This document shows, piece after piece, positions 17,171 through 32,836 of a stretch of 64,000 nt of DNA. The notes under the pieces were generated by a model. That model was not told the origin of the DNA. It saw only the letters and a program-made list of their open reading frames with translations, and did not search any database. The DNA lies in NCBI GenBank assembly GCA_050248495.1, contig JBFWSG010000004.1:23686-87685 (forward strand), in the 5' to 3' direction. The number at the start of each line of letters is the position of its first letter. The stretch's first letter is position 1. Source of the DNA: Pirellulales bacterium. GTDB taxonomy: Bacteria > Planctomycetota > Planctomycetia > Pirellulales > Lacipirellulaceae. The position numbers were made by a program, and so were the translations under genes.

Positions 17171-18013
17171 ATGCACATCCCCTCGCACTGGACCCGCGGC
17201 ACCGCCACCATTCGCCTGCCCGATGGCCGCGAGTTCCCGCTCACCGTCTGGGGCTGGGCCAACGACAAAGCCGCCGCCCAACGAATTGCCGCCGAGCGCC
17301 TGCAGCGTGTCCAGGATCGGTTCCGCTCTGGCGACTGGCCCGATTGGTACGCCTACGGGTCGCGCCCGCTCCGCGAGGAAATCCTGCAAACCTTCCACGC
17401 CGACGGCGCCGCCGAACCCGTCGCCATCGTGACCCGCAACGGCTACGGCACCCAAGTCCTCAACACATCCTCCCTGCTCTTTCTCGACATCGACCGGCCG
17501 CTGCCCACCTTGCGACAGCGCCTCCCGCGTTGGCTCGGCGGCAAACCCGCCCCCACCGGCGAAGAAATCCTCTTCAGGCTCCGCCGCGCGCTCGAAGCGC
17601 ACGCGCCCACGACATTCCGCATCTACCAAACCGCCTGGGGCTGGCGCGTTGCCGCGGTCGACCGTGAATTCAATCCCACCAGCGACTCGACCCAATCGCT
17701 CATGCGCGCGACCGACACCGATCCGTACTACATGCGCCTCTGTCAGGTGCAGCAAAGCTTTCGCGCCCGATTGACCCCCAAACCGTGGCGCTGCCACGTC
17801 GCCCCGCCAACGTCCCAATATCCCCGCACGGACGAACAGGCCCAGCGCCAATTCGCCGCCTGGCTACGTGACTACGAGCAAAAAACAACCGGCCACGCCA
17901 CCTGCCGCTACCTCGAAACGGTCGGCACGAGCAAACCGAATTCAACCCTCGCGTCACTCCTGGAACTCCACGACACCGTCACCCGCAGCCACGAACCACT
18001 CCCGCTGGCCTAG
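17171..18013 (+). CDS. hypothetical protein (possibly a 5' portion of a longer gene interrupted at 18011)
   Basis: The 280-aa ORF has good GC3 bias. It ends at a TAG formed at the junction with hairpin repeat copy 2. Confidence 0.65.
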   Translation: MHIPSHWTRGTATIRLPDGREFPLTVWGWANDKAAAQRIAAERLQRVQDRFRSGDWPDWYAYGSRPLREEILQTFHADGAAEPVAIVTRNGYGTQVLNTSSLLFLDIDRPLPTLRQRLPRWLGGKPAPTGEEILFRLRRALEAHAPTTFRIYQTAWGWRVAAVDREFNPTSDSTQSLMRATDTDPYYMRLCQVQQSFRARLTPKPWRCHVAPPTSQYPRTDEQAQRQFAAWLRDYEQKTTGHATCRYLETVGTSKPNSTLASLLELHDTVTRSHEPLPLA

Positions 18014-18038
18014 GCGAGCTCGCTTCAGCGAGCGGGCG
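18013..18038. repeat. hairpin repeat element copy 2 (GGCGAGCTCGCTTCAGCGAGCGGGCG)
   Basis: It starts within the stop codon of 17171..18013. Confidence 0.7.
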
Positions 18039-18248: not shown

Positions 18249-18274
18249 GGCGAGCTCGCTTCAGCGAGCGGGCG
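18249..18274. repeat. hairpin repeat element copy 3
   Basis: It is identical to copy 2 and lies 3 nt after the TAA at 18245. Confidence 0.7.
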
Positions 18275-19644: not shown

Positions 19645-19848
19645 ACGAAGCGCAGCCGCTAACAGCGGAGGGGGAGAATCGAACTCGACCGGCGCAGGGG
19701 CCGATCCGGGCTGGGCTCATAAGGCTCGTTGCATCACCAGACGCGGGCCGCTCTCCTAGGCTGGGAGTCATAAGCACCAAAAAGCATCCACCAGATGAGA
19801 AACAGAGACATAGGGGAATAGCGACAAACCTGCTCTACCTGAGGTTGG

Positions 19849-20097
19849 CTATTCGTGGCTAAAGAACTCTTTGTCAGAAACGTTGTCTTTTTTGGACAAC
19901 TTAAACTTCTTGCGGACGCCAGCCACGTAACAATCTAGGATCTCGTCCTCTTTCTTCTGCTTGGGAATCGGATACGAGAAGATATTCCCGTTGATGTTCC
20001 GCTTGAACATCGTGTGGCTGCCCTTGCCGCGCGCGGTCTCTTCCCAGCAATCATAGTGCGATAGAATGCGGCGGAGCTTTCTTAGCGAATACGGCAC
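19849..20097 (-). CDS. hicA: HicA-like mRNA interferase toxin
   Basis: LRKLRRILSHYDCWEETARGKGSHTMFKR..YPIPKQKK matches the HicA consensus (GW....KGSH..F.....P.HKK). It has an approximately 30-aa C-terminal extension. Confidence 0.6.
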   Translation of the reverse strand: MPYSLRKLRRILSHYDCWEETARGKGSHTMFKRNINGNIFSYPIPKQKKEDEILDCYVAGVRKKFKLSKKDNVSDKEFFSHE

Positions 20098-20106
20098 GCG
20101 GACATT

Positions 20107-20529
20107 TTACACCGCGCACGTACTTCCACCAGCGTATTCCCGATACTGGCATTCCTCGATCTCGAACGAATCGATATGCCGTGGAGCGCTAACTTCCTTG
20201 AGCTGCAATTCGCCAATGGCGATGTTCTTCCCGGCGGCAAACATCTCAAAAAACTTGCCGTCAGCCGGGCTGAAAAGATTGGCCGGATTATCGTGCTCGA
20301 TTGAAGCCTCGATTTGAAGAGCGATTGCATCGCCCAATTGATCCAGCGCTTCCTCGCGGGTATCCCCGTCACCCATCAAATCGAATTCAAGGCAATGCGC
20401 AACCCAAGCGTTCCCTTCCTTGTAGAAGACGATGCGGATCGGCAATCGCATTGACTCTGCCATGAACTTCCTTACACGCGGCGCAACAAAACGGCCCGAC
20501 CTGAACGGCTGGGCCATGATCGTTTCCAT
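20107..20529 (-). CDS. hicB: HicB-like antitoxin (UPF0150/HicB N-terminal domain)
   Basis: PIRIVFYKEGNAWVAHCLEFDLMGDGDTREEALDQLGDAI is HicB-like. The start is likely METIMAQ at 20529, with an AGGAAA Shine-Dalgarno; the track start is 20568. Confidence 0.55.
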   Translation of the reverse strand: METIMAQPFRSGRFVAPRVRKFMAESMRLPIRIVFYKEGNAWVAHCLEFDLMGDGDTREEALDQLGDAIALQIEASIEHDNPANLFSPADGKFFEMFAAGKNIAIGELQLKEVSAPRHIDSFEIEECQYREYAGGSTCAV

Positions 20530-20686
20530 CTTTCCTGGTTTGACATCCCGATCATCCTGACAGTCCATTTAATCGGGTCGCTAATGCAACTATATCCAAC
20601 CAAACGGCCGAAAGCAAAAGACTGGTCATGCCCCCCAGAAGTGCCGTCAAATTGATGAAAACACCGAGAAATACGCGGCCGGCGCC

Positions 20687-20726
20687 CGCGCGGATAGCTT
20701 TCAAAGCTTTGAAAGCTATCCGCGCG
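20687..20726. promoter_or_regulatory. 40-bp perfect palindrome CGCGCGGATAGCTTTC-AAAGCTTT-GAAAGCTATCCGCGCG
   Basis: Two 16-nt arms around a palindromic 8-nt core were verified by eye. It lies about 160 bp upstream of hicB and about 340 bp upstream of the HNH gene. Confidence 0.75.
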
Positions 20727-21062
20727 CACACGATCTGTCAACGGATGGCGGGTGCCAGAGGTCAAAATGAGGGCGCCAACTCCGTTGTAAATCACGAGCT
20801 CGGCCGCTATGATGACGCCCGTAGAACGAAACGCTGGCCTCTGGGGTGTTGCACTCGCCACCCCAGGGGCCAACTTCGTTTTTCGACATTGACGAAAATG
20901 CGATAGCACTGTTAGACTGTTCACGTTGTAGGAGTCCTGTCCGAACGGATTCGAGCGTTTCGTTCTACAAGCCTCTCGCTCAGCCGCCTCTGGCTCGCAC
21001 TCCTGGTATTTGTTTCCGCGCACCCGGTGCGCGCTGACATCCTTTTTAAAGGAGTGCATGTC

Positions 21063-21359
21063 ATGTATTGCAATTGGACGCATGAGGAACGGTCTGCTGT
21101 GTGGTTCAAGGGTCGCGCTGTCCCCGGCGTCGATGGCGACAAGTGGCGTCTCGACGTTTGCGGAGCTTGGATCGGCTGGCAGTTCTACGGCAACCGCAAC
21201 TCGCAGTATGGATGGGAAGTGGACCACATTGATCCACGCGGCGGCGACGGGCTTCACAATCTTCAGCCGCTCCAATGGGAAAACAACGTAGCCAAAGGCG
21301 ACGGACACTTGGCATGCGTTGTTACGGCATCGGGCGTGGAGAACGTTGCCGTTCGTTAG
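21063..21359 (+). CDS. HNH endonuclease, small stand-alone
   Basis: An AAAGGAG Shine-Dalgarno lies 7 nt upstream of the ATG at 21063. The HNH motif is YGWEVDHIDPRGGDGLHNLQPLQWENNVAKGD. Confidence 0.7.
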   Translation: MYCNWTHEERSAVWFKGRAVPGVDGDKWRLDVCGAWIGWQFYGNRNSQYGWEVDHIDPRGGDGLHNLQPLQWENNVAKGDGHLACVVTASGVENVAVR

Positions 21360-21567
21360 TCCTTTCCCGCGTTCCCTCCGGATGACAGAGCGCGCTCGTG
21401 GCTAGATCGAAGTCCGCGCGCACAAACACTCTGTCGTCCTCTGGGACGGCATCCATAATCCGGCGGATGCACTCACAGAGTGCGTCCGCCTCTTCGTTTC
21501 CAAGGGTCAACGGGTAGTCCTGCTGCCGAACGCTTTCAAGCAGCAATCGGATTGTCGCGTTATTCAA
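21322..21567 (-). CDS. hypothetical small protein (81 aa)
   Basis: An AAGGAG Shine-Dalgarno lies 4 nt upstream of the ATG. It converges on, and overlaps, the 3' end of the HNH gene. Confidence 0.4.
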   Translation of the reverse strand: MNNATIRLLLESVRQQDYPLTLGNEEADALCECIRRIMDAVPEDDRVFVRADFDLATSALCHPEGTRERTNERQRSPRPMP

Positions 21568-21727
21568 TGGTGCTCCTTAGCCATCCAGCGCGGTCGCCCG
21601 GAATGCCAGGCGAAGGGGGCGGGATGGTCGCAGGGCCGCAGAATCGCGGCAAGACCGCAGAGACGCACTCGGCGTGCCGGCGGCGACATTGTGGTAAGCT
21701 GGGCGAAATTCCGCCGGGGGTCCGACT

Positions 21728-21782
21728 CGCACACTTACATCCAGCACCACCTCGCTTTGGGTGGTGCTGGATTAAGTGTGCG
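21728..21782. terminator. long hairpin with a 23-bp stem and one bulge, directly downstream of the 21788..22432 gene
   Basis: cgcacacttaCatccagcaccacc-tcgctttg-ggtggtgctggattaagtgtgcg. Its left arm is part of a 39-bp direct repeat shared with 25788-25825. Confidence 0.55.
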
Positions 21783-21787
21783 GGGAT

Positions 21788-22432
21788 TTACGCGTGCCGA
21801 TAGCGTAGGTCGGGTATTCGGACGCCATAGCCAGCGCAGACATCGCACTCAGCTTCTATGCGCCCGAACTTATGGCCAGTGCCCTTGCATATCTGGCATT
21901 TGGGATAGTGGGACAATTCACCGGGAAGCTCGCCGGTGCCACCACACTTGCTGCAAATAGCTTCTATGCGATTCCATTTCAGACCAGAGCCTTTACACAG
22001 AGGGCATCTCATGGGCGGAATCGAATCTGCCGGATCGTTGCTTCCCGTTTTGCCTTCACGCACCATTCTTCGGTGAAGCATGAAATCGGCGATGGTTGCT
22101 GGTGTAAATCGCGGGATTTTAGGGAGGGCGGTAGACTTCACTACTGTGGTAATGGTCGCTGGCGATGGCGAAGCTGTAACTCCGTGAAATGTTTCCAGAA
22201 GTCCCCGCAATTTCGGAAGATTGACAACGACAATGATCGTCAGCCCAAGTAGGCAAAGTCCGGTTCGTACGATGTCATGGCTAAGAATCGTTGCGACAGC
22301 GTTGAACGCCATCCCCCAATTCCGGATGTCATCCGGCAGGCCACCCAAGCCAATAATACCAATTACAGTACCTAGCACGTTCCCTACTCGGCGCACGTTG
22401 CGCCACGGTGGTACGTTCCAATCGACAGCCAT
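21788..22432 (-). CDS. membrane protein (2 predicted transmembrane helices) with four DnaJ-type CXXCXGXG zinc-finger repeats
   Basis: The repeats are CPLCKGSG, CSKCGGTG, CQICKGTG and CDVCAGYG in the C-terminal 80 aa. The transmembrane helices are VLGTVIGIIGLGGL and LCLLGLTIIVVVNL. GC is about 52%. Confidence 0.6.
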   Translation of the reverse strand: MAVDWNVPPWRNVRRVGNVLGTVIGIIGLGGLPDDIRNWGMAFNAVATILSHDIVRTGLCLLGLTIIVVVNLPKLRGLLETFHGVTASPSPATITTVVKSTALPKIPRFTPATIADFMLHRRMVREGKTGSNDPADSIPPMRCPLCKGSGLKWNRIEAICSKCGGTGELPGELSHYPKCQICKGTGHKFGRIEAECDVCAGYGVRIPDLRYRHA

Positions 22433-22518
22433 GCCATGCTCCTACGACTTGACGCGCGCAGCCGTAGGCCATACCATGCAATCACCTAGATTGTGCATGG
22501 CCTACGTGGTCATTCAAA

Positions 22519-22551
22519 AGCTGACGGCTCCACCCGTCAGCTTTTTTGTTG
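22519..22551. terminator. hairpin plus T-run (agctgacgg-ctccac-ccgtcagct-ttttttg)
   Basis: The 9-bp stem lies between the zinc-finger membrane gene and the transposase. It is palindromic and could function on either strand. Confidence 0.45.
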
Positions 22552-22601
22552 CGTGAATTATATCGACTCTCTGCACAAAGCTACAGTGGCGGGGGCACCA
22601 C

Positions 22602-23561
22602 CTAGTCCGCCATCACATTCTCAATCATTTCTCGCACCGACCACACCTTTGTTGCAACGCCGTGGGCAACGGCCGGCGTCAGCCCTTTCAATGTCTTGTG
22701 TTGACGGCAATAGTTGTAATGACAGAAGTACACGGCCAGCGCGGCACGGTGGTTGTTCCACTTCTTTGAGAAGCAGTAGGTCAAGCGGCCCATGCGCTTC
22801 ATGTGGGTGCGGATGCTGCCGTTCATTCGCTCAACGTGCGAGGTGCATATCTGATCTTGTTGGAATGGCGTGCCGTGCATCGGGGTCCGGCTGGCCCCTA
22901 TTATCCGAGCCGGTGAGTACCGGCGCTGGTCCTCGTAGACATTGACGCCGTATATCTTTTGCATCACGCCGTGGTCGACGCGGTGTCCAAGCTGCTTTTT
23001 GATTTCGCTTGGATAGCTCCGCCAGCCGTCGCTACTAACGTGGAAGTGACCGAACGTGGCCCGGTCCAGTTTGGCGATGAACTGCTCGGTGTGCTGCTGG
23101 CTGCGGCGGCCCATGTGCCAAGTAATGAGCAGCTTTGATTGGCGGTCGATGGCGGTGTAGCAATAGCTGTCGCCGCAGCCGCCAACCATCTTCTGCGCTT
23201 TTGTGGTCGCGTTTTTTGCTAAAATAAATTGCCAAATTTCGTCCACCTGGGTGTCGCTGACAAACACGTCCTTAATGTGTTCGGCCATGTACTTTTCGCA
23301 GTGCTCGCCGAGCATCGTGAGCAGCGAGAGGATCGTCATTAAGTCGGTGCCGGTGAAGCGGGCGGTGGCGCGAACATTCATGCCCTCGCACAGCAGCTCG
23401 ACGATCTTGGCGGCTTGCTCAACGCCGATCCGCATGCCGCCCAGCATGGCGGTGGATTCGGTCCAGGACGCGCCGCAGCTCTTGCAGCGGTAGCGGGTGG
23501 CCCCGGCCTTAGTTTTCCCATTCGTGCGGCGGTTCTCATGCTGACAGACGGCGGCAATCAT
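22602..23561 (-). CDS. DDE transposase, IS1595-family-like
   Basis: An N-terminal zinc ribbon (RYRCKSCGASWTE) is followed by a DDE-like core (DEIW..., AIDR, SDGWRSY). The C-terminal motif is YFCHYNYCRQHKTLKGLTPAVAHG. Confidence 0.75.
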   Translation of the reverse strand: MIAAVCQHENRRTNGKTKAGATRYRCKSCGASWTESTAMLGGMRIGVEQAAKIVELLCEGMNVRATARFTGTDLMTILSLLTMLGEHCEKYMAEHIKDVFVSDTQVDEIWQFILAKNATTKAQKMVGGCGDSYCYTAIDRQSKLLITWHMGRRSQQHTEQFIAKLDRATFGHFHVSSDGWRSYPSEIKKQLGHRVDHGVMQKIYGVNVYEDQRRYSPARIIGASRTPMHGTPFQQDQICTSHVERMNGSIRTHMKRMGRLTYCFSKKWNNHRAALAVYFCHYNYCRQHKTLKGLTPAVAHGVATKVWSVREMIENVMAD

Positions 23562-23756
23562 TGCGAAACTTCCCCGTTCTTAGGGCCTTCGCTATGATTC
23601 AGTTCTCTAGGCTGGAATCTGGCGAAAGCCGGTTCTAGTTGCCCCCGGTCGCGTGCCAACGCTTCCGGGGGTTTACTTTTGCCTACATTTATTCTACCCA
23701 TAATTAATCGGCATTGCAAGGGTTGACGCAAGATTATTTATGGGTATATTTATGGC

Positions 23757-23933
23757 ATGGAAAACAAACGAGGCAGGCCGCCTAAGGCCCCAGAAGACCG
23801 CAGGACTGAGGACATCAAAATCCCACTGAGCGAAGCGGAGAAGCAGCAGATTCAATCTGCGGCCGAATCCGACGACGCCAAGCCCGTTACATGGGCCAGG
23901 AACGTGCTCTTGAGGGCCGCCAAGAGGCGGCTG
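23757..23933 (+). CDS. small ribbon-helix-helix DNA-binding protein (MobC/CopG-like), 58 aa
   Basis: This ORF is absent from the track because it is under 60 aa. It translates to MENKRGRPPKAPEDRRTEDIKIPLSEAEKQQIQSAAESDDAKPVTWARNVLLRAAKRRL. The RGRPPK, K-I-P-L-S-x-x-E and VTWARNVLLRAA pattern is typical of MobC-type RHH proteins. Confidence 0.5.
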
Positions 23934-24199
23934 TGAGCGGAGAGCAGGGGTTACGATCCCAGCCGCGAAAAGTTTGCACGGCCCCCTTCGGCGGGTTATA
24001 AACCACGCTACGCCAGCCAAGACGCGGGCCGCTCTCCGATAGAGAACGGTCTGTTGAGGCTTAGAATGTGGCGAACATGTTTCTAAGACACCTACGCTAC
24101 TGCTTGGTTCGCGGCTGGTTATTGATGCACCCAGAGCGATGCGCCAGAGGCCGTTATGGACGATTGATAAGGCGCACCCGAAGATACAGGCAAAGTAGG

Positions 24200-25699
24200 A
24201 TGACTACGGTCGATGCAGCGATCAATCCAAGTAAAAGTTTACCCGACCACTGGAGCGAATCGATGTCCGACATCACGTCGGTAAACGAGCAAATCGCTGC
24301 ATTGACGCAACGATTAGCCAATGTGAATGAGTCGGCAAATGCGTATGCGACTGCCGGACACGTGTTCGCCGCGGCCATAGCGCTCTTCACGGCCGCAGTA
24401 TTCTTTACATCGTATTTGGGGGCAAGTAAAACGCGGCAGGTTAAGAAAATCAGCGACGAACTTGCAACTGCTAGGGAAGCGCAGCTGAGTTTGATTCTTG
24501 CTGACAAAGACGCCAAGATCGGTGCAGCTAACGCGACGGCAGCTACAGCGAATGCCGAAGCAGCCAAGGCAAACGAGGGCCTCGCAAAGGCAGGCCTCGA
24601 TATTGAGGACCGCAAGAATGAGAACCTGAAATTGGAGTCGCAGGTTACCACTCTCCGAACAGCGGCCGCCAAAGCTGATGCAGCACTTGAGGAAACCCGA
24701 ATTAAGGCGGCAGAAGCGCTTGAGGGTCTCGCGGAAACCGGGGAATGGCAGCGAATACAAGAAATGATTCGCTCGGAGATCGAAGAAGAGCTGACCCCGC
24801 GAGGCGTTAACATAGAGTTGGCTAGTGCCAACATTCTAAAAGAGTTTCGCGGGACGAAATTCTTCGTGACAACGCCAACAGAAGTAGAGCCGATAAGGCT
24901 GGGTAAGGGAATTGAAGATTTGCTGTTAGAGTCAGGGTGGGAGCGTGTCGCGCCACTCTCGGCGATTGTCGAATCCGAAGAGTTTGAATTCGATAACAAC
25001 GTGACATTCAAGTCAAACTTTCGATCCGAGGAAGAATTAAAACCGGCAGTATATGCACTTGCCATCGTCCTGCAAAAAGAGCGAATTGACTGTTTCCATT
25101 TCATCGACACTTCTCCCAAGAGAGGGCAACCGCCAATTCCTAAAGGTGCCATTAGCATCGTCGTGGGACCAAAGCGCACAACGTACTCCAGGCAATTGAC
25201 CGACAGGGCGGACTCACCTCGGTGGGATGCTCGGCAGAAAGCGATGGTAGAGCTTGAGGGCCGCCGCGAAACAAAAGCACCACCAGATGCCTCCCTGCTC
25301 GGCCCCATGTCTGAAAATGCGTGGCGCGTCTTTGCAGAATGCGCGCCAACTTCAGGAGACGCAGTGTTAGTTGGAAATTCAATGAACGATCCGGCGGATG
25401 AATGGGTCGTCGGCGTCCGCGATGGATTGTTGGTGGCCGGATGGACCGTGGTATCGACCGTGCTATTCGACGAACAGCGTATGCTCGGCATTGAGCGCAA
25501 CGCCGTAATTCTTCGTAAGAACGCGCCAGCAGCACGCAGGCAACAGGCGGAGAAATTGCACAAGGCGCTCTCTGATGCCGGGTTCCAGCCAGTTTTTGTG
25601 GAGACAGAATCGCCGCCGAAAGGATTCGCGGTGTGCGTGTTAATTGGCGGTCCCGGAGATGGCGCGCAGGGCGACACTGGCCCGGCCAAACCGGAGTAG
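24200..25699 (+). CDS. hypothetical membrane-anchored coiled-coil protein (about 500 aa)
   Basis: The start is likely MTTVDAAI at 24200; the track start at 24068 gives an implausible Arg-rich leader. It has one transmembrane helix (HVFAAAIALFTAAVFFTSYL), about 120 aa of Ala/Lys/Glu coiled coil, then a C-terminal domain of about 300 aa with two related sub-modules. No family was recognised. Confidence 0.6.
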   Translation: MTTVDAAINPSKSLPDHWSESMSDITSVNEQIAALTQRLANVNESANAYATAGHVFAAAIALFTAAVFFTSYLGASKTRQVKKISDELATAREAQLSLILADKDAKIGAANATAATANAEAAKANEGLAKAGLDIEDRKNENLKLESQVTTLRTAAAKADAALEETRIKAAEALEGLAETGEWQRIQEMIRSEIEEELTPRGVNIELASANILKEFRGTKFFVTTPTEVEPIRLGKGIEDLLLESGWERVAPLSAIVESEEFEFDNNVTFKSNFRSEEELKPAVYALAIVLQKERIDCFHFIDTSPKRGQPPIPKGAISIVVGPKRTTYSRQLTDRADSPRWDARQKAMVELEGRRETKAPPDASLLGPMSENAWRVFAECAPTSGDAVLVGNSMNDPADEWVVGVRDGLLVAGWTVVSTVLFDEQRMLGIERNAVILRKNAPAARRQQAEKLHKALSDAGFQPVFVETESPPKGFAVCVLIGGPGDGAQGDTGPAKPE

Positions 25700-25787
25700 A
25701 AAGTGTTAATCACGGCGCACCCCCTGCGGAGTCGCCGCTTTTCGGACTCGCGGAACGCACCCACGACCGGACAAGGCGCCTCACTGC

Positions 25788-25825
25788 TGCCGGGGGACCG
25801 ACTCGCACACTTAATCCAGCACCAC
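25788..25825. repeat. direct repeat of 21713-21751 (gccgggggWccgactcgcacacttaMatccagcaccacc)
   Basis: Of 38 nt, 37 match copy A with one extra base, and the match extends a further 10 nt (gccctttgg vs tcgctttgg). The two copies bracket 4.07 kb holding the zinc-finger membrane gene, the transposase, the RHH gene and the coiled-coil gene. Confidence 0.6.
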
Positions 25826-26431
25826 CGCCCTTTGGCACACCCGTTGCATCTAATCCGTCGTCGCCTGAACGATCAGGCACCAAGCGTTCGGAACAAACGC
25901 TCGGGGCCGAACAGAGAAGAGGCATTTTGTCTGGGGTCGGTCGGCGAAGAGGCAAATCTGCCGTGTTCGGATCTGCATATCAGGAAAGAAGTTAGCGAGA
26001 TCTGCCCACCTCCCACAGAAACTCGCAAACCAGGCGCATTTCCGACACGTCACGGGCGAGTCGCGGTCTTCCGAGAGGCTAGACCACGACTCGCCCATCT
26101 TTTTTGACTGTTGCAAAATCGTACATGTGTATTTTTCCAATACACTTTTCTGGGACACTTCGTCACCCACCTGCCAGTCGACAAATCACGTCCGCAGAAT
26201 TTTTCCAAGATTTTCTCGGCCGCCAATTCGCGGAATCGCTCGACCCGCAAATCCACGACTGCTCAACTGTGTGTCCCCCGGTTGAGCAGTCGCAAAAAGC
26301 CGGCAAAAAGTGGTAGCCGCCCGTTGAACAGTCGCCCCCTTTTTTTCCGACACCTCGCACCGCCTGCGGACGTTAGAACGTGGGGCAGCCAAATCCGCGC
26401 GGTCGATCATAATCAAGCAATGAGGATCTCA

Positions 26432-26491
26432 CCGCTAATCCGCGCTAATGGACGCTAATTTCCATTAGCGCTCCTTAGCGACAATTAGCGG
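26432..26491. promoter_or_regulatory. heptamer dyad array: 3 direct CGCTAAT units followed by 3 inverted (A)TTAGCG units
   Basis: ccgctaat ccgcgctaat ggacgctaat ttcc attagcg ctcc ttagcg acaattagcg. The centre (cgctaat-ttcc-attagcg) is a perfect palindrome. The array ends about 25 bp before the GTG start at 26515. Confidence 0.55.
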
Positions 26492-26514
26492 TTTGCTTTA
26501 CCGGGACCAAGGCT

Positions 26515-30402: not shown

Positions 30403-31110
30403 ATGTTGGACACCATCTTCTCGATTGCGGCGCTGGTCGGTGGAACCGTCCTGGGCTTCCAGTTCGTGATGATGCTGCTGGGCTTCGCGCAGCATGGCCC
30501 GGCCGACATCGCGGCGGGGCATCACGTCGATCTGGGCGGCGCGGACGGATTTGACGGGTCGCTCGATGGGTCGATGGATACCAGCGGAAGTCTGGGCCAC
30601 GACGCCGGGCTGGGGCACGAGAGCGGCGCCGGCCACACTCACCAGGGCGATGTCTCGGATCACGGCGCCCATTGGTTCTACGAAGTCATTTCGATCCGCA
30701 CCCTCAGCGCGGCGGCCACTTTCTTTGGCCTGGTCGGCAAGGGCTTGTTGACCAATGGCCATACGCCGCTAGCTTCGTTCGTGTACGCGAGCCTGGCAGG
30801 CATAGCAGCGCTGTATGGCGTGTACTGGTTATTCCAGCAAATCTATTGGCTGCAAAACTCAGGGAATGAGGACGTCCGCTGCGCGATTGGCCTGTCCGCC
30901 ACGGTGTACGTGCCAATTCCGGCAGCGCAGTCGGGGGCGGGTAAGGTAACCTTTCGGCTGCAAGATCGCACGGTCGAGTACCAAGCTGTGACCGATGAAG
31001 GTTTGCGATTGGCCACTGGCGAACGAGTGGTGATCGTGGGAATTGTCAATTTGGGCACGGTTTGCGTCGCAAGAGAATCTCAAACGGCCGACGCTCAAGT
31101 TTCGGCCTAG
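30403..31110 (+). CDS. NfeD-like membrane protein (N-terminal transmembrane segments plus C-terminal OB-fold)
   Basis: A GGGAG Shine-Dalgarno lies 6 nt upstream of the ATG at 30403. The C-terminus GKVTFRLQDRTVEYQAVTDEGLRLATGERVVIVGIVNLGTVCV is an NfeD beta-barrel. A His/Gly/Asp-rich linker is present, and the gene sits immediately upstream of flotillin. Confidence 0.65.
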   Translation: MLDTIFSIAALVGGTVLGFQFVMMLLGFAQHGPADIAAGHHVDLGGADGFDGSLDGSMDTSGSLGHDAGLGHESGAGHTHQGDVSDHGAHWFYEVISIRTLSAAATFFGLVGKGLLTNGHTPLASFVYASLAGIAALYGVYWLFQQIYWLQNSGNEDVRCAIGLSATVYVPIPAAQSGAGKVTFRLQDRTVEYQAVTDEGLRLATGERVVIVGIVNLGTVCVARESQTADAQVSA

Positions 31111-31165
31111 GAACAAATCGTAGAAAACACTTTCGACCTTCTTTGACCAAAAAGGCATCCATTCC

Positions 31166-32836
31166 ATGAACGTCAATTCAATCCTATTTGGCCAAACTGC
31201 CATCTCTTCGCTCAACGCACTCTTTGCCGAAGCTTGGCCGTGGCTGGCGGGACTGGCGTTGATTGTAATTTTCTTCATGTTCCTGGGTTTTGTAAAATCG
31301 ACGATTCGCCGCTGCAGCAGCAACCAGGTGCTCGTGATCTATGGCGGGCTCACAGGCACGGGCCGCACGGCAAAGACGATCCACGGCGGCGCCGGCATTG
31401 TGCTGCCGTTTTTGCAGGACTACCGCTACCTGAGCCTGGAGCCAATTCAGATCGAAATCCCGCTTCGCGGCGCGCTCTCGATGGAGAATATCCGCGTCAA
31501 CGTGCCGAGCGTATTCACGGTGGCCGTCGGCACGCAGCCCGACGTCATGAACAATGCCTCGATCCGTCTGCTGGAGCTGACGACGGACGAAATTCGCAAG
31601 CAGGCCGAGGAAATCATCTTTGGCCAGCTGCGGCAGGTGATCGCCTCGATGAAGATCGAGGACATCAACCGCGACCGCGATACGTTTCTGCAGCATATTC
31701 AGAATTCGGTCGAGCCGGAGCTCAAGAAGATCGGCCTGGTGCTGATCAACGTGAACATCACGGACATCACGGACGAGAGCGGGTACATCGACGCGATCGG
31801 GCAGAAGGCGGCGTCGCAGGCGATCCAGCAGGCCCGCGGCGACGTGGCCGAGGAAGTGAAGCAGGGCGAAATCCGCGTGGCCGACGCCGAGCGTGAGAAG
31901 ACGGTCATGGTCGCCAGCGCCACGAAGCTGCGCGAAATCGGCACGCGCGAAGCAGCCCGCGAGCAGGCGGTAAAGATCGCGATGCTCGAACGGGAACAGA
32001 CCGTCGGCGAGCAGACGGCGGCCTTCCAGCGCGACGTGGAGGTGAAGCAGGCCGAGCAGAACAAGCGCGTGGCGGTAGCCGAGGCGAATGCGGCGGCGGT
32101 GGACGGCGAGAACATCGCCGACGCCAAGATCGCCCAGTCGCAGGCGACGCTGCTCGAACAGCGGGCCGAGGCGTATGAGCGCGGTGAATCGCGCAAGCGA
32201 GCTGCCGAGGCCGCGGTCATCGAGGTGCAGAACCGCGCGATGGCCAAGGCGGCGGTGGCCGAGGCGGAACGCGTCGAAGCCGAGGAGCGGGCGAAGTTGG
32301 AAGCTCCCGCCAAGGCGCAAAAGGCTCGGATCCTGGTCGACGCCGAAGCCGAGGCCCAGAAGCGCCGGCTGGAAGCGGAGGGTGAGGCGGCGGCGATTTA
32401 CGCCCGGCTCGAAGCCGAAGCCCGCGGCCATTACGAAATCCTGGCCAAGAAGGGCGAAGGTCTTAAAATGATTGTCGAGGCCTGCGGCGGCGCGCAGCAG
32501 GCCTTTCAGCTGATGATGCTCGAGCACCTAGATACGCTCGCCGAAAGCTCGGCCAAGGCGATCAGCAATATCAAGTTCGACAAGGTCGTGGTGTGGGAGA
32601 ATGGAGGCGCGAATGGCCGCTCGAACACGGCCGACTTCCTGCACAAGATGGCTGGCACGCTGCCGCCGATGATGCAGGTCATGCGCGACATCGGCGGCAT
32701 TGAGATTCCCGAGAGCCTGGCGAAGCTCGCCGGCGAAGATGGGGCGACGACGGGGAACGGCAATGGACGAGCTCCGTATGCGGAGAACGCGGTTGCGGTC
32801 GAGGAACCAGTGGCGACGGCGACGAAGAAGTCGTGA
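31166..32836 (+). CDS. flotillin-like SPFH/band-7 protein
   Basis: An N-terminal transmembrane segment is followed by an SPFH domain (VLVIYGGLTGTGR...IQIEIPLRGALSMENIRVNV) and a long Ala/Glu-rich coiled-coil flotillin domain. Confidence 0.85.
   Translation: MNVNSILFGQTAISSLNALFAEAWPWLAGLALIVIFFMFLGFVKSTIRRCSSNQVLVIYGGLTGTGRTAKTIHGGAGIVLPFLQDYRYLSLEPIQIEIPLRGALSMENIRVNVPSVFTVAVGTQPDVMNNASIRLLELTTDEIRKQAEEIIFGQLRQVIASMKIEDINRDRDTFLQHIQNSVEPELKKIGLVLINVNITDITDESGYIDAIGQKAASQAIQQARGDVAEEVKQGEIRVADAEREKTVMVASATKLREIGTREAAREQAVKIAMLEREQTVGEQTAAFQRDVEVKQAEQNKRVAVAEANAAAVDGENIADAKIAQSQATLLEQRAEAYERGESRKRAAEAAVIEVQNRAMAKAAVAEAERVEAEERAKLEAPAKAQKARILVDAEAEAQKRRLEAEGEAAAIYARLEAEARGHYEILAKKGEGLKMIVEACGGAQQAFQLMMLEHLDTLAESSAKAISNIKFDKVVVWENGGANGRSNTADFLHKMAGTLPPMMQVMRDIGGIEIPESLAKLAGEDGATTGNGNGRAPYAENAVAVEEPVATATKKS

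What the first reader, a model, noticed from the sequence alone, without database searches (positions are those of the whole stretch)
19645..26100. Lower-GC genomic island packed with conflict and mobile-element genes and two uncharacterised membrane proteins
Between the PEP-CTERM gene and the DUF1549/DUF1553 gene, GC falls from about 65% to about 50%. The segment carries a hicBA toxin-antitoxin pair, a 40-bp perfect palindrome, a stand-alone HNH nuclease, an IS1595-like transposase and a MobC-like RHH protein. It also carries two proteins with no recognisable family: a 2-transmembrane-helix protein ending in four DnaJ-type CXXCXGXG zinc knuckles, and a 500-aa membrane-anchored coiled-coil protein. 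TA modules and HNH nucleases are common neighbours of anti-phage defence systems. The two unknown membrane proteins, possibly together with the RHH protein, are the best candidate in this window for an undescribed defence or conflict system.
Basis: partly seen in the sequence, partly recalled or inferred. Interest (0 to 1): 0.8.

Follow-up and report, generated by a model that had tools for sequence, protein, structure and literature searches.

The report
IS1-type cargo transposon carrying an allo-tRNA
The low-GC "island" is one intact 4.1-kb IS1-family transposon carrying passenger genes, next to what looks like the broken remains of a second copy; the two unknown membrane proteins are separate passengers rather than a demonstrated defence system, and the transposon's conserved core unexpectedly includes a tRNA-like gene (an allo-tRNA).

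Summary
The compositional island is real: 55.8% GC against 62-63% in the flanks, not 50% against 65%. Most listed genes are present, but the transposase is IS1 family, not IS1595.

The key structure was missed. Perfect 23-bp inverted repeats (21760-21782 and 25804-25826, GGTGGTGCTGG...) enclose exactly the zinc-knuckle protein, the transposase, the RHH protein and the coiled-coil protein. This is a 4,067-bp transporter IS.

Among 47 related elements in Planctomycetota and Acidobacteriota with clear repeats, 41 have perfect 8- or 9-bp target duplications around 1.8-8.1 kb units with variable cargo.

The conserved core is transposase, divergent RHH gene and a roughly 100-nt structured allo-tRNA (anticodon UAU, 23937-24040, minus strand). 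Homology between elements stops at the tRNA 5' end and near the transposase stop codon, which defines two cargo slots.

The left half of the island (19659-21751: HicAB-like pair, palindrome, HNH, orf81) lies between a decayed allo-tRNA and a right-end remnant. I read it as a truncated tandem copy.

The zinc-knuckle gene recurrently follows IS1-type transposases. The coiled-coil protein has one partial homologue. No defence-model match was found for either. Related elements carry HEC-04-like, PD-Lambda-2_B-like and TA-like cargo, so a conflict role stays possible but unproven.

The parts
19659..19759 (-). Decayed allo-tRNA-like sequence; inner end of the truncated transposon copy A
   Evidence: Covariance models R1 and R2 score 31.3 and 47.4 bits (E 2.5e-4 and 3e-6). 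Rfam tRNA-Sec scores 23 bits, below its threshold. An 18-nt exact repeat links it to 24020-24037. It aligns to the intact copy. ARAGORN finds nothing.
19849..20097 (-). HicA-like toxin gene (82 aa); cargo of copy A
   Evidence: Pfam HicA_toxin E=0.015 and PHROG toxin E=9e-4. A GKGSH motif is visible in the sequence.
20107..20529 (-). HicB-like antitoxin gene (140 aa as called by NCBI)
   Evidence: Pfam DUF7387 E=5.7e-5 and PHROG HicB-like E=0.0064. The gene call comes from L001.
20687..20726 (.). 40-bp perfect palindrome
   Evidence: Arms 20687-20706 and 20707-20726 are 100% complementary. It is present in two assemblies, and one Logan contig ends inside it.
21063..21359 (+). Small HNH-type nuclease gene (98 aa)
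   Evidence: PHROG endonuclease VII E=1.4e-6 and HNH E=0.0049. No Pfam or PDB match. A DHIxP...NLQPL...N motif is visible in the sequence.
21322..21567 (-). orf81, unknown; TTG start preceded by AAGGAG
   Evidence: No family match. Called as a gene in the Logan contig.
21713..21751 (.). Remnant of a transposon right end: 15-nt inner flank plus an inverted-repeat copy (21727-21751) with one inserted base
   Evidence: The direct repeat 21713-21760 versus 25789-25835 is 91.7% identical. Aeoliella L008 has an equivalent remnant 8 nt from its left repeat.
21752..21759 (.). Left 8-bp flank TCGCTTTG (a diverged target duplication, or a dimer junction)
   Evidence: It matches the right flank GCCCTTTG at 6 of 8 positions.
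21760..21782 (+). Left terminal inverted repeat GGTGGTGCTGGATTAAGTGTGCG
   Evidence: It is 23/23 complementary to 25804-25826. These are the only two copies in the window, with 0 expected by chance.
21788..22432 (-). Zinc-knuckle membrane protein (214 aa): two predicted transmembrane helices plus 4x CxxCxGxG. Cargo in the transposase-side slot
   Evidence: It recurs directly downstream of IS1-type transposases.
22448..22589 (-). Conserved non-coding leader of the zinc-knuckle gene: a terminator-like hairpin, a TATAAT box and a second hairpin
   Evidence: It is 86.7% identical to L003 2166-2308, whereas the coding region is 66% identical.
22602..23561 (-). IS1-family DDE transposase (319 aa, single ORF, N-terminal zinc finger)
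   Evidence: NF033558 100.3 bits, NF050000 33.1 bits and PF03400 41.4 bits. It is 66% identical to the L008 transposase.
23677..23764 (.). Imperfect palindrome in the divergent transposase/RHH promoter region; candidate RHH operator
   Evidence: 33-nt arms, 73% complementary. Analogous palindromes lie at the same place in L007 and L003. The operator role is inferred.
23757..23936 (+). RHH protein gene (59 aa); a core gene of the transposon family
   Evidence: Homologues lie divergent from the transposase in 26 of 81 loci. Weak NikA-like and RHH_7 matches.
23937..24040 (-). allo-tRNA-like gene: anticodon loop UUUAUAA (anticodon UAU), long variable arm, G73. Inner border of the second cargo slot
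   Evidence: R1 scores 93.7 bits and R2 87.9 bits. Covariation is shown. ARAGORN calls the L008 orthologue tRNA-Ile(tat). Four pairwise alignments end at 24037 or 24038.
24263..25699 (+). Membrane-anchored coiled-coil protein (478 aa); cargo in the tRNA-side slot
   Evidence: Its only homologue is P0002 in L007, in the same slot. The C-terminal 293 aa have no homologue.
25804..25826 (+). Right terminal inverted repeat
25827..25834 (.). Right 8-bp flank GCCCTTTG
   Evidence: It corresponds to the perfect target duplication GCCTTTTG in L008, and the flank is homologous.

Best explanation
Positions 21760-25826 are one intact IS1-family transporter IS, that is, an insertion sequence that carries passenger genes.

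Its conserved core (22602-24040) holds three parts:
- a single-ORF DDE transposase;
- a divergently transcribed RHH protein, which I infer binds the palindromic region between the two genes and regulates them;
- a structured allo-tRNA with anticodon UAU, lying convergent to the RHH gene and abutting its stop codon.

Two variable cargo slots lie between this core and the 23-bp terminal inverted repeats. The transposase-side slot holds the zinc-knuckle membrane protein together with its own conserved leader. The tRNA-side slot holds the coiled-coil membrane protein.

The transposase is expected to cut at the repeats and insert the whole unit with an 8-bp target duplication. This is shown for relatives and inferred here.

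Positions 19659-21751 are most likely the tRNA-to-right-end part of a second, tandem copy. That copy has lost its transposase and RHH gene, and its cargo is the HicAB-like pair, the palindrome, the HNH gene and orf81.

The two membrane proteins are independent passengers of unknown function. By analogy with cargo in related elements, my best guess is a maintenance, exclusion or defence role for the mobile element. This is not shown.
For: Element boundaries:
- The 23/23 inverted repeats enclose exactly the four genes and occur nowhere else in the window.
- The repeat starts GGTGGTG, which fits the IS1 end pattern GGnnnTG. That pattern is from my memory of ISfinder.
- The transposase passes the IS1 family cut-offs.

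Family-wide support:
- A genome scan gave 80 related loci. 47 of them have repeat pairs matching at 19 or more of 24 positions (45 at 20 or more), around units of 1.8-8.1 kb.
- 37 of those 47 have a perfect 8-bp target duplication and 4 have a perfect 9-bp one.
- Cargo differs between elements.

Core and slot boundaries:
- Homology between the window and L008 runs over 22641-24037 only. The alignments with L062, L026 and L012 end at 24037 or 24038.
- The RHH gene is found in 26 of 81 loci.

allo-tRNA:
- 15 of 32 predicted pairs show compensatory changes across 7 copies.
- Across 24 matches, 90.8% of cells are paired against 67% in shuffles, and the covariation score is 0.562 against 0.188.
- ARAGORN calls tRNA-Ile(tat) at the same position in L008 and L046.
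- The features match the published description of allo-tRNA-UAU (PMC5389517).

Copy A:
- The decayed tRNA (47.4 bits) and the 38-nt end remnant are in the same order and orientation as in the intact copy. Their spacing is similar: 4,281 and 4,076 nt.

Cargo origin:
- Cargo GC3 is 0.53-0.57, against 0.72-0.77 for the core and 0.81-0.84 for host genes.
Against: - The window's own 8-bp flanks match at only 6 of 8 positions.
- The exact transposase is recorded at this one locus only, so recent mobility in this genome is not shown.
- No left end, transposase or RHH remnant of copy A was found. The PEP-CTERM gene ends 14 nt before the decayed tRNA, so copy A could instead be a partial duplication.
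- Aeoliella has a related element at the orthologous site in the opposite orientation. Its transposase divergence (66%) is similar to that of the neighbouring host genes (64-67%). An old resident element is therefore as possible as a recent arrival.
- The allo-tRNA model detects the element in only about 17-19 of the 80 loci. It is a core part of sub-lineages, not of the whole family.
- The functions of the RHH protein, the allo-tRNA and both cargo proteins are inferred, not tested.
Confidence: 0.85

Rival explanations
1. The zinc-knuckle protein, the coiled-coil protein and perhaps the RHH protein form one undescribed membrane-based anti-phage or conflict system inside a defence island.
For: - The region is foreign DNA with TA-like and HNH genes beside it.
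- Related transposons carry HEC-04-like and PD-Lambda-2_B-like proteins.
- The N-terminal two-helix module of the zinc-knuckle protein is shared with proteins that have other C-terminal domains, a pattern common in defence effectors.
- One homologue sits as a moron-like gene next to a methyltransferase in a prophage.
Against: - The two proteins never co-occur elsewhere. The coiled-coil homologue in L007 lacks a zinc-knuckle partner. The zinc-knuckle homologues in L003-L006 and L094-L101 lack a coiled-coil partner.
- They are on opposite strands at opposite ends of the element, separated by the transposase core.
- The RHH gene travels with the transposase, not with the membrane proteins.
- There are no PADLOC matches.
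Confidence: 0.07
2. The zinc-knuckle protein is not random cargo. It is an accessory factor of IS1-type transposons, for example a membrane-tethered DnaJ-type zinc-finger protein that modulates transposase folding or activity, or element maintenance.
For: - Its gene lies directly downstream of, and co-directional with, an IS1-type transposase in the window, L005/L006, L094 and L096-L099. In L096-L099 there is a 1-nt gap, and the protein is seen on 16 contigs.
- L088 has fragments of both genes. The gene ends 5-45 nt before the terminal repeat.
- In L003 it keeps the same position and leader next to an IS5-type transposase and an RHH gene.
Against: - None of the 80 genome loci found with the transposase query (L008-L087) carries it.
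- One homologue is in a prophage with no transposase nearby.
- Its GC3 (0.53) differs from that of the core (0.77), so it was acquired separately.
Confidence: 0.25
3. The element is an old, vertically inherited resident of this chromosomal site. It would be shared with Aeoliella since their common ancestor, later inverted and re-loaded with cargo, rather than an independent recent insertion into a hot spot.
For: - Both genomes have the same right flank and a near-identical 8-bp duplication (GCCCTTTG and GCCTTTTG).
- Both have an end remnant 8 nt outside the left repeat.
- Transposase identity (66%) is similar to that of the adjacent DUF1549 (64%) and DUF1501 (67%) orthologues.
Against: - The orientation relative to DUF1549 is opposite, and both cargo slots differ.
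- The repeats are perfect within each genome but differ between genomes.
- The window's end remnant resembles the window's own repeat far more than it resembles that of Aeoliella.
- These points fit repeated targeting of a resident end-like sequence better.
Confidence: 0.3
4. The island is a classical tRNA-targeting integrative island. The tRNA-like sequences would be attachment sites and the 18-nt repeat (19739-19756 and 24020-24037) would be attL/attR.
For: The 18-nt exact direct repeat derives from a tRNA-like 5' end. Cargo starts exactly at the tRNA 5' end.
Against: - There is no integrase in the region.
- The repeat is part of a roughly 100-nt homologous tRNA-like unit that lies inside target-duplication-flanked IS1-type elements in 13 other loci.
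- tRNA-targeting islands normally abut the 3' half of the tRNA, not its 5' end. This point is from general knowledge.
Confidence: 0.05

Closest known systems
IS1 family insertion sequences, single-ORF passenger-carrying forms (transporter IS; the 'ISMhu11-type' group of ISfinder, recalled from memory)
   Same: - DDE transposase passing the IS1 profiles, with an N-terminal zinc finger.
- About 23-bp terminal inverted repeats beginning GGnnnTG.
- 8-9 bp target duplications in relatives.
- Passenger genes inside the repeats. The transporter-IS concept is described in PMC9330008.
   Different: - No InsA/InsB' frameshift arrangement.
- A divergent RHH gene and a structured allo-tRNA form part of the conserved core.
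- There are two defined cargo slots.
- The ISfinder entries could not be consulted, and 'ISMhu11' occurs in no held paper.
allo-tRNA-UAU (Mukai et al. 2017, Nucleic Acids Res, PMC5389517)
   Same: - Long variable arm and a tRNA-Sec-like long D-stem with a small loop.
- A long acceptor helix with a 3-bp T-stem, and an extra helix giving a five-way junction.
- UAU anticodon.
- Found near TA genes and a 'transposon-related protein'.
   Different: - The paper reports Clostridia, Proteobacteria and Acidobacteria; here the copies are in Planctomycetota as well.
- Here the gene has a fixed position inside target-duplication-flanked IS1-type units, at the border of a cargo slot.
- No held paper mentions both 'allo-tRNA' and 'transposase'.
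Tn3-family and other unit transposons that carry TA or defence passengers
   Same: Terminal repeats, a transposase and variable passenger genes, including TA modules (PMC9330008).
   Different: A different transposase family, no resolvase or res site, a much smaller unit, and an embedded tRNA-like gene.
DnaJ cysteine-rich zinc-finger domain proteins (PF00684) and the phage family TIGR02642 / PF27659
   Same: Four CxxCxGxG motifs. The zinc-finger part gives partial matches.
   Different: - No J domain.
- Scores are below the family cut-offs (30.4 against 32.7, and 28.3 against 101.4).
- The N-terminal two-helix membrane module with GLGGIPDDxxxWG is not part of either family.
HicAB type II toxin-antitoxin systems
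   Same: Adjacent small genes in toxin-antitoxin-like order, with a GKGSH motif and a HicB-like N-terminal fold signature.
   Different: All profile scores are below the curated cut-offs. Toxicity was not tested.

Membership tests
IS1 family insertion sequence | DDE transposase matching IS1 family profiles | tested here: met
   NCBIfam NF033558 scores 100.3 bits (cut-off 100) and Pfam PF03400 scores 41.4 bits (cut-off 24.1).
IS1 family insertion sequence | N-terminal zinc-binding domain of the IS1/IS1595 type | tested here: met
   NF050000 scores 33.1 bits (cut-off 28), residues 5-35.
IS1 family insertion sequence | Terminal inverted repeats of about 20-25 bp beginning GGnnnTG (consensus recalled from ISfinder) | tested here: met
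   The window has 23/23 repeats beginning GGTGGTG. Related loci have pairs of the form GGT(A/G)(G/C)TG....
IS1 family insertion sequence | 8-9 bp target site duplication | tested here: inconclusive
   In the window the flanks match at 6 of 8 positions (TCGCTTTG and GCCCTTTG). Among relatives, 37 of 47 have a perfect 8-bp duplication and 4 have a perfect 9-bp one.
IS1 family insertion sequence | InsA/InsB' two-ORF arrangement with programmed frameshift (classical IS1) | tested here: not met
   There is a single 319-aa ORF. This fits the single-ORF subgroups rather than classical IS1.
IS1 family insertion sequence | Demonstrated mobility or multiple copies | tested here: not met
   The exact transposase is recorded at one locus only, and the repeat sequence occurs only at the two ends within the window. 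The full genome was not available.
   No IS1595 model is listed among the NCBIfam matches at E<=0.1. Only the zinc-finger domain shared by IS1 and IS1595 matches.
allo-tRNA (Mukai et al. 2017) | 12-bp acceptor branch split 8/4 or 9/3 instead of 7/5 | tested here: met
   The consensus has a 9-pair acceptor helix and a 3-pair T-stem, 94.9% and 100% paired across 24 sequences. Caveats: the alignment was fitted to the model, and it includes three or four canonical tRNAs.
allo-tRNA (Mukai et al. 2017) | Long variable arm and a tRNA-Sec-like D-arm (long stem, small loop) | tested here: met
   A 7-pair variable-arm helix and a 5-pair D-stem with a loop of about 5 nt. Rfam tRNA-Sec is the best, though sub-threshold, family for the decayed copy.
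allo-tRNA (Mukai et al. 2017) | UAU anticodon group with possible five-stem junction | tested here: met
   UAU sits at the anticodon position of the 7-nt loop in the window and in the ten planctomycete loci with a strong model match. Nine of these eleven copies have the loop C/UUUAUAA. An extra 3-bp helix encloses the D and anticodon arms.
allo-tRNA (Mukai et al. 2017) | Expression, processing and aminoacylation | not testable with these tools
   The paper reports that six UAU-group members converted to amber suppressors were inactive in E. coli.
Known anti-phage defence systems (PADLOC-DB v2) | Match of the zinc-knuckle or coiled-coil protein to a defence protein model | tested here: not met
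   The zinc-knuckle protein has no match. The coiled-coil protein has only a JetC coiled-coil match at E=0.011 and 11.9 bits.
HicAB toxin-antitoxin | Profile matches to HicA and HicB above the curated cut-offs | tested here: inconclusive
   HicA_toxin scores 15.8 bits against a cut-off of 27. PHROG toxin has E=9e-4 and HicB-like E=0.0064.
DnaJ cysteine-rich domain (PF00684) | Four CxxCxGxG repeats forming two zinc centres | tested here: inconclusive
   Four motifs are present, and the cysteines are invariant across 9 homologues. The Pfam score is 30.4 against a cut-off of 32.7. The structure model is too poor to use (pLDDT 43.5).
TIGR02642 / PF27659 phage protein family | Full-length match to the family profile | tested here: not met
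   Score 28.3 bits against a cut-off of 101.4. Only residues 141-175 match profile positions 182-215 of 267.
MobC/NikA-type RHH relaxosome accessory proteins | Profile match, plus a relaxase or oriT context | tested here: not met
   NikA-like scores 18.2 bits against a cut-off of 27. There is no relaxase nearby. The conserved partner is the transposase.

The most novel reading that the evidence does not exclude
The allo-tRNA may be a working part of this transposon family rather than a hitch-hiker. It could mark, and perhaps mediate, cassette exchange at a dedicated cargo slot. Alternatively it could regulate the RHH/transposase module as an antisense or processed RNA.

On this reading the family would be a cargo-shuttling platform in soil and aquatic Planctomycetota and Acidobacteria. 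The zinc-knuckle and coiled-coil proteins would be undescribed membrane effectors for exclusion or defence. Acidobacterial members with UUA or CUA anticodons might even act as transposon-borne nonsense suppressors.
Probability: 0.2. Interest if true: 0.8.

Novelty: new variant of a known kind. Interest (0 to 1): 0.55.

Why it matters
- It replaces a vague 'defence island' label with a defined structure: one intact transporter IS of the IS1 family and an inferred truncated copy.
- It gives a concrete genomic home to allo-tRNA-UAU. [quoted passage not shown]
- If the fixed position of the allo-tRNA at the cargo border is functional, it offers a testable route to what these RNAs do. It could also show how small transposons collect and swap TA and defence genes in poorly studied phyla.
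- It is a caution for genome scans. Low GC plus TA and HNH neighbours can simply be the contents of nested transposons.

Tried and rejected
- **Structure prediction.** Both unknown proteins gave unusable models (pLDDT 43.5 and 36.1), so I ran no fold searches.
- **Homologue searches.** Full-length searches found only 2 relatives of the zinc-knuckle protein and 1 of the coiled-coil protein. The coiled-coil C-terminal domain alone found none.
- **Profile search.** The zinc-knuckle profile search found 210 proteins (E <= 0.001). Only about ten of the 150 listed align over most of their length.
- **Collection scans.** A metagenome scan with the zinc-knuckle alignment gave 6 loci, only one of them informative. 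A viral-contig scan gave none.
- **RNA scans.** ARAGORN and Rfam at gathering thresholds found no RNA in the window. The tRNA-like gene emerged only from repeats and cross-locus alignment.
- **Classical tRNA-integrating island.** Considered and rejected, because there is no integrase and the tRNA-like unit lies inside IS1-type units.
- **The 298-aa ORF after the zinc-knuckle gene in L096.** Its translation looks non-protein-like and it is unrelated to the coiled-coil protein.
- **Terminal repeats around L003 and L094-L099.** These could not be defined because the contigs are too short.
- **Literature.** Searches for 'ISMhu11' and for IS1-family passenger genes gave nothing specific.

Full report
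**Observation**

Sliding-window composition shows a real trough between about 18.5 and 26.5 kb. Recomputed, 19645-26100 is 55.8% GC, against 62.3% to the left and 63.2% to the right. The lowest of 216 other 6.4-kb windows is 60.2%. The tetranucleotide distance of the island from the flanks is 0.027, against at most 0.015 for other windows. The island is therefore confirmed, but the drop is from about 63% to about 56%, not from 65% to 50%.

Several labels needed correction.
- The transposase is IS1 family. NF033558 scores 100.3 bits against a cut-off of 100, and PF03400 scores 41.4 against 24.1. No IS1595 model matches.
- The HicA, HicB, HNH and RHH labels rest on sub-threshold matches and motifs.
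- PADLOC finds nothing for any protein of the region beyond two chance-level hits.

**The structure that was missed**

A repeat search found a 23-nt perfect inverted repeat at 21760-21782 and 25804-25826. These are the only two copies in the 64-kb window, with none expected by chance. The repeats enclose exactly four genes: the zinc-knuckle protein, the transposase, the RHH protein and the coiled-coil protein. The repeat begins GGTGGTG. This fits the IS1 end pattern GGnnnTG, which I recall from ISfinder and could not check here.

To test whether this is a real transposable unit, I scanned one genome per GTDB species with an alignment of this transposase and its relative from L007. This gave 80 loci in Planctomycetota and Acidobacteriota.
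- A scripted search for GGnnnTG-type repeat pairs on either side of the transposase gave 47 clear pairs, matching at 19 or more of 24 positions (45 at 20 or more). They bound units of 1.8-8.1 kb.
- 37 of those 47 units have a perfect 8-bp direct duplication of the flank, and 4 have a perfect 9-bp one.

These are therefore units that transposed together with everything between the repeats. That makes them transporter ISs, a known category (PMC9330008). In the window itself the 8-bp flanks match at only 6 of 8 positions (TCGCTTTG and GCCCTTTG).

**Core and cargo**

The closest relative is L008 (Aeoliella sp., transposase 66% identical). It has 24/24 repeats (GGTGGTGCTCAAATAAGTGTGCTC) and a perfect duplication, GCCTTTTG, but entirely different cargo:
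- a 147-aa ORF with no family match plus an XRE-HTH protein, which looks TA-like by layout only;
- a DUF3800 gene.

Nucleotide homology between the window and L008 covers only 22641-24037. Alignments with L062, L026 and L012 also end at 24037 or 24038. The conserved core is therefore the transposase, the intergenic region, the RHH gene and about 100 nt beyond the RHH stop codon. Everything between the core and each repeat is variable.

The RHH gene is found divergent from the transposase in 26 of 81 loci. Palindromes occupy the RHH/transposase intergenic region in the window, L007 and L003. I infer that the RHH protein is the element's regulator. It is not a partner of the membrane proteins.

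Cargo elsewhere in the family is heterogeneous. It includes a full-length HEC-04 match (1.5e-48), a PD-Lambda-2_B match (4.7e-52), an HTH/ImmA-type peptidase and a P63C-domain protein.

**The tRNA-like gene**

The roughly 100 nt after the RHH gene are more conserved than the proteins. They are 82.5% identical between the window and L062, whose transposases share only 40% amino-acid identity.

Read on the transposase strand, this stretch folds as a tRNA with these features:
- a long variable arm;
- acceptor GGAGAGC...GCTCTCC followed by G;
- UAU at the anticodon position in the window and in all ten planctomycete loci with a strong match (loop UUUAUAA in the window, C/UUUAUAA in nine of the eleven copies);
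- a canonical T-loop in some copies.

ARAGORN calls tRNA-Ile(tat) at that position in L008 and L046. It calls tRNA-Asp(gtc) and 'tRNA-Pyl'(cta) at the same position in L040 and L055.

RNAalifold on seven copies predicts 32 pairs, 15 of them with compensatory changes. Covariance models built from these copies find the element at the same position in about 17-19 of the 80 loci. Thirteen of those loci have clear repeats, and in each the element lies inside the target-duplication-flanked unit. Across the 24 matches:
- 90.8% of cells are paired, against 67% in shuffles;
- the covariation score is 0.562, against 0.188 in shuffles and at most 0.137 for slid partners;
- the layout is a 9-pair acceptor helix, a 3-pair T-stem and an extra 3-pair helix that makes a five-way junction.

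These are the published hallmarks of allo-tRNAs, and specifically of the UAU group. Mukai et al. found that group to be the most abundant and inactive in E. coli suppression assays. [quoted passage not shown] No held paper contains both 'allo-tRNA' and 'transposase'.

I therefore regard the fixed placement of allo-tRNAs inside an IS1-type transporter IS, at the border of a cargo slot, as not described in the literature I could search. Acidobacterial copies carry UUA, CUA, GUC and UAC anticodons.

**The left half of the island**

The sequence at 19659-19759 first looked like a degenerate tRNA-Sec (23 bits). It is in fact a decayed copy of the same allo-tRNA (47.4 bits with model R2; alignments).

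At 21713-21751 there is a copy of the last 38 nt of the intact element's right end, with one inserted base. It lies 8 nt before the left repeat of the intact element.

The order, orientation and spacing of the tRNA and the right end are the same as in the intact copy. I therefore read 19659-21751 as the tRNA-to-right-end part of a second, tandem copy. Its cargo would be the HicAB-like pair, the palindrome, the HNH gene and orf81, and its transposase side has been lost. This is an inference, at about 70% confidence. No left end was found, and the PEP-CTERM gene ends 14 nt before the decayed tRNA.

On this reading the whole low-GC segment from 19659 to 25826 is transposon DNA.

**Site history**

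Aeoliella has its element upstream of the orthologous DUF1549/DUF1553 gene (64% identity; DUF1501 67%). It shares a homologous right flank, an almost identical 8-bp duplication and an end remnant 8 nt outside its left repeat. However, the element lies in the opposite orientation and carries different cargo.

Either this is a hot spot where a resident end-like sequence attracts insertions, or it is an old resident element that has since been inverted and re-loaded. I cannot decide between the two.

**The two unknown proteins**

The zinc-knuckle protein belongs to a small family. A profile search found 210 representatives at E <= 0.001 among 1.84 billion. Only about ten of the 150 listed align over most of their length. 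Its N-terminal two-helix module (GLGGIPDDxxxWG...H..RW) and its C-terminal 4x CxxCxGxG domain also occur separately, with other partners.

Every context with enough sequence is a mobile element:
- directly downstream of, and co-directional with, an IS1-type transposase in the window, L005/L006, L094 and L096-L099 (16 contigs, 1-nt gap), with fragments of both genes in L088;
- next to an IS5-type transposase and an RHH gene in L003/L004, with a leader 87% identical in nucleotides while the coding region is 66% identical;
- beside a methyltransferase, between the portal and terminase genes of a prophage, in L101.

The coiled-coil protein has one homologue (32% identity over the N-terminal third), which occupies the same slot in L007. 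Its C-terminal 293 residues have no detectable relative.

The two proteins never co-occur elsewhere. Their GC3 (0.53 and 0.57) differs from that of the core (0.72-0.77) and from host genes (0.81-0.84), so they were acquired separately. The AlphaFold models were too poor to use.

**Verdict**

The finding is a real foreign segment. It is explained by a known kind of element, an IS1-family transporter IS. The 'undescribed defence system' reading is not supported as stated. A conflict or maintenance role for either passenger remains possible, by association only.

The unexpected result is that an allo-tRNA and an RHH gene belong to the conserved core of this transposon lineage, and that the core defines two cargo slots. 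I rate this a new variant of a known kind, of moderate interest.

Noticed in passing
L067 6782-6876, L073 6739-6835, L080 6665-6760, L084 5677-5774, L055 6774-6870: In acidobacterial members of the transposon family, the embedded allo-tRNA-like genes have anticodon loops CUUUAAA/C (anticodon UUA) or CUCUAAA (anticodon CUA). These are nonsense-suppressor-type anticodons, carried on a mobile element.
   Followed up: partly
window 22448-22589 and L003 2166-2308: The non-coding leader of the zinc-knuckle gene is 87% identical between two elements whose transposases belong to different families (IS1 and IS5), while the coding sequence is 66% identical. It holds a TATAAT box, a terminator-like hairpin followed by a T-run, and a second hairpin. 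It may be an attenuator or another cis-regulatory RNA.
   Followed up: partly
window 21727-21782 and L008 5461-5522: In both genomes an inverted-repeat-like remnant lies exactly 8 nt outside the left repeat, forming a hairpin-like end-to-end junction. This resembles the abutted ends of IS dimers or circles and could be a targeting signal.
   Followed up: partly
window 18013-18038 and 18249-18274: A 26-nt exact direct repeat (GGCGAGCTCGCTTCAGCGAGCGGGCG), itself partly palindromic, lies in the 740-nt intergenic region upstream of the PEP-CTERM gene. It may be a REP-like element.
   Followed up: no
window 26431-26492: An inverted repeat rich in GCTAAT units (29-nt arms, 79% complementary, 4 nt apart) lies immediately upstream of the DUF1549/DUF1553 gene start. 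It may be an operator or a leader structure.
   Followed up: no
window 30750-31500: A second, smaller GC trough (about 54-58%) lies downstream of the DUF1501 gene. I did not examine it.
   Followed up: no
window 24154-25764 (minus strand) and L007 9738-11126 (minus strand): Long antisense ORFs (536 and 462 aa) overlap the coiled-coil genes. Their Ser/Ala/Arg-rich translations look like antisense artefacts. The plus-strand reading is the one conserved between the two loci.
   Followed up: partly
L101 5135-6627: A zinc-knuckle homologue (P0008, 43% identical) sits next to an N6/N4 DNA methyltransferase. The pair lies between the portal/capsid genes and the large terminase gene of a prophage-like region, which is a typical moron position.
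   Followed up: no
L012 76-684, L044 18-698, L068 63-659, L085 63-470 (element coordinates) and L007 7909-8313: A recurrent protein of 134-226 aa with no family match (tested only for the L007 and L044 members) sits right next to one terminal repeat in several planctomycete members of the transposon family. It may be another semi-core gene.
   Followed up: no
window 20697 (start of Logan contig L002): An independent assembly breaks exactly in the middle of the 40-bp perfect palindrome. This is consistent with the palindrome being real and troublesome for assemblers.
   Followed up: no
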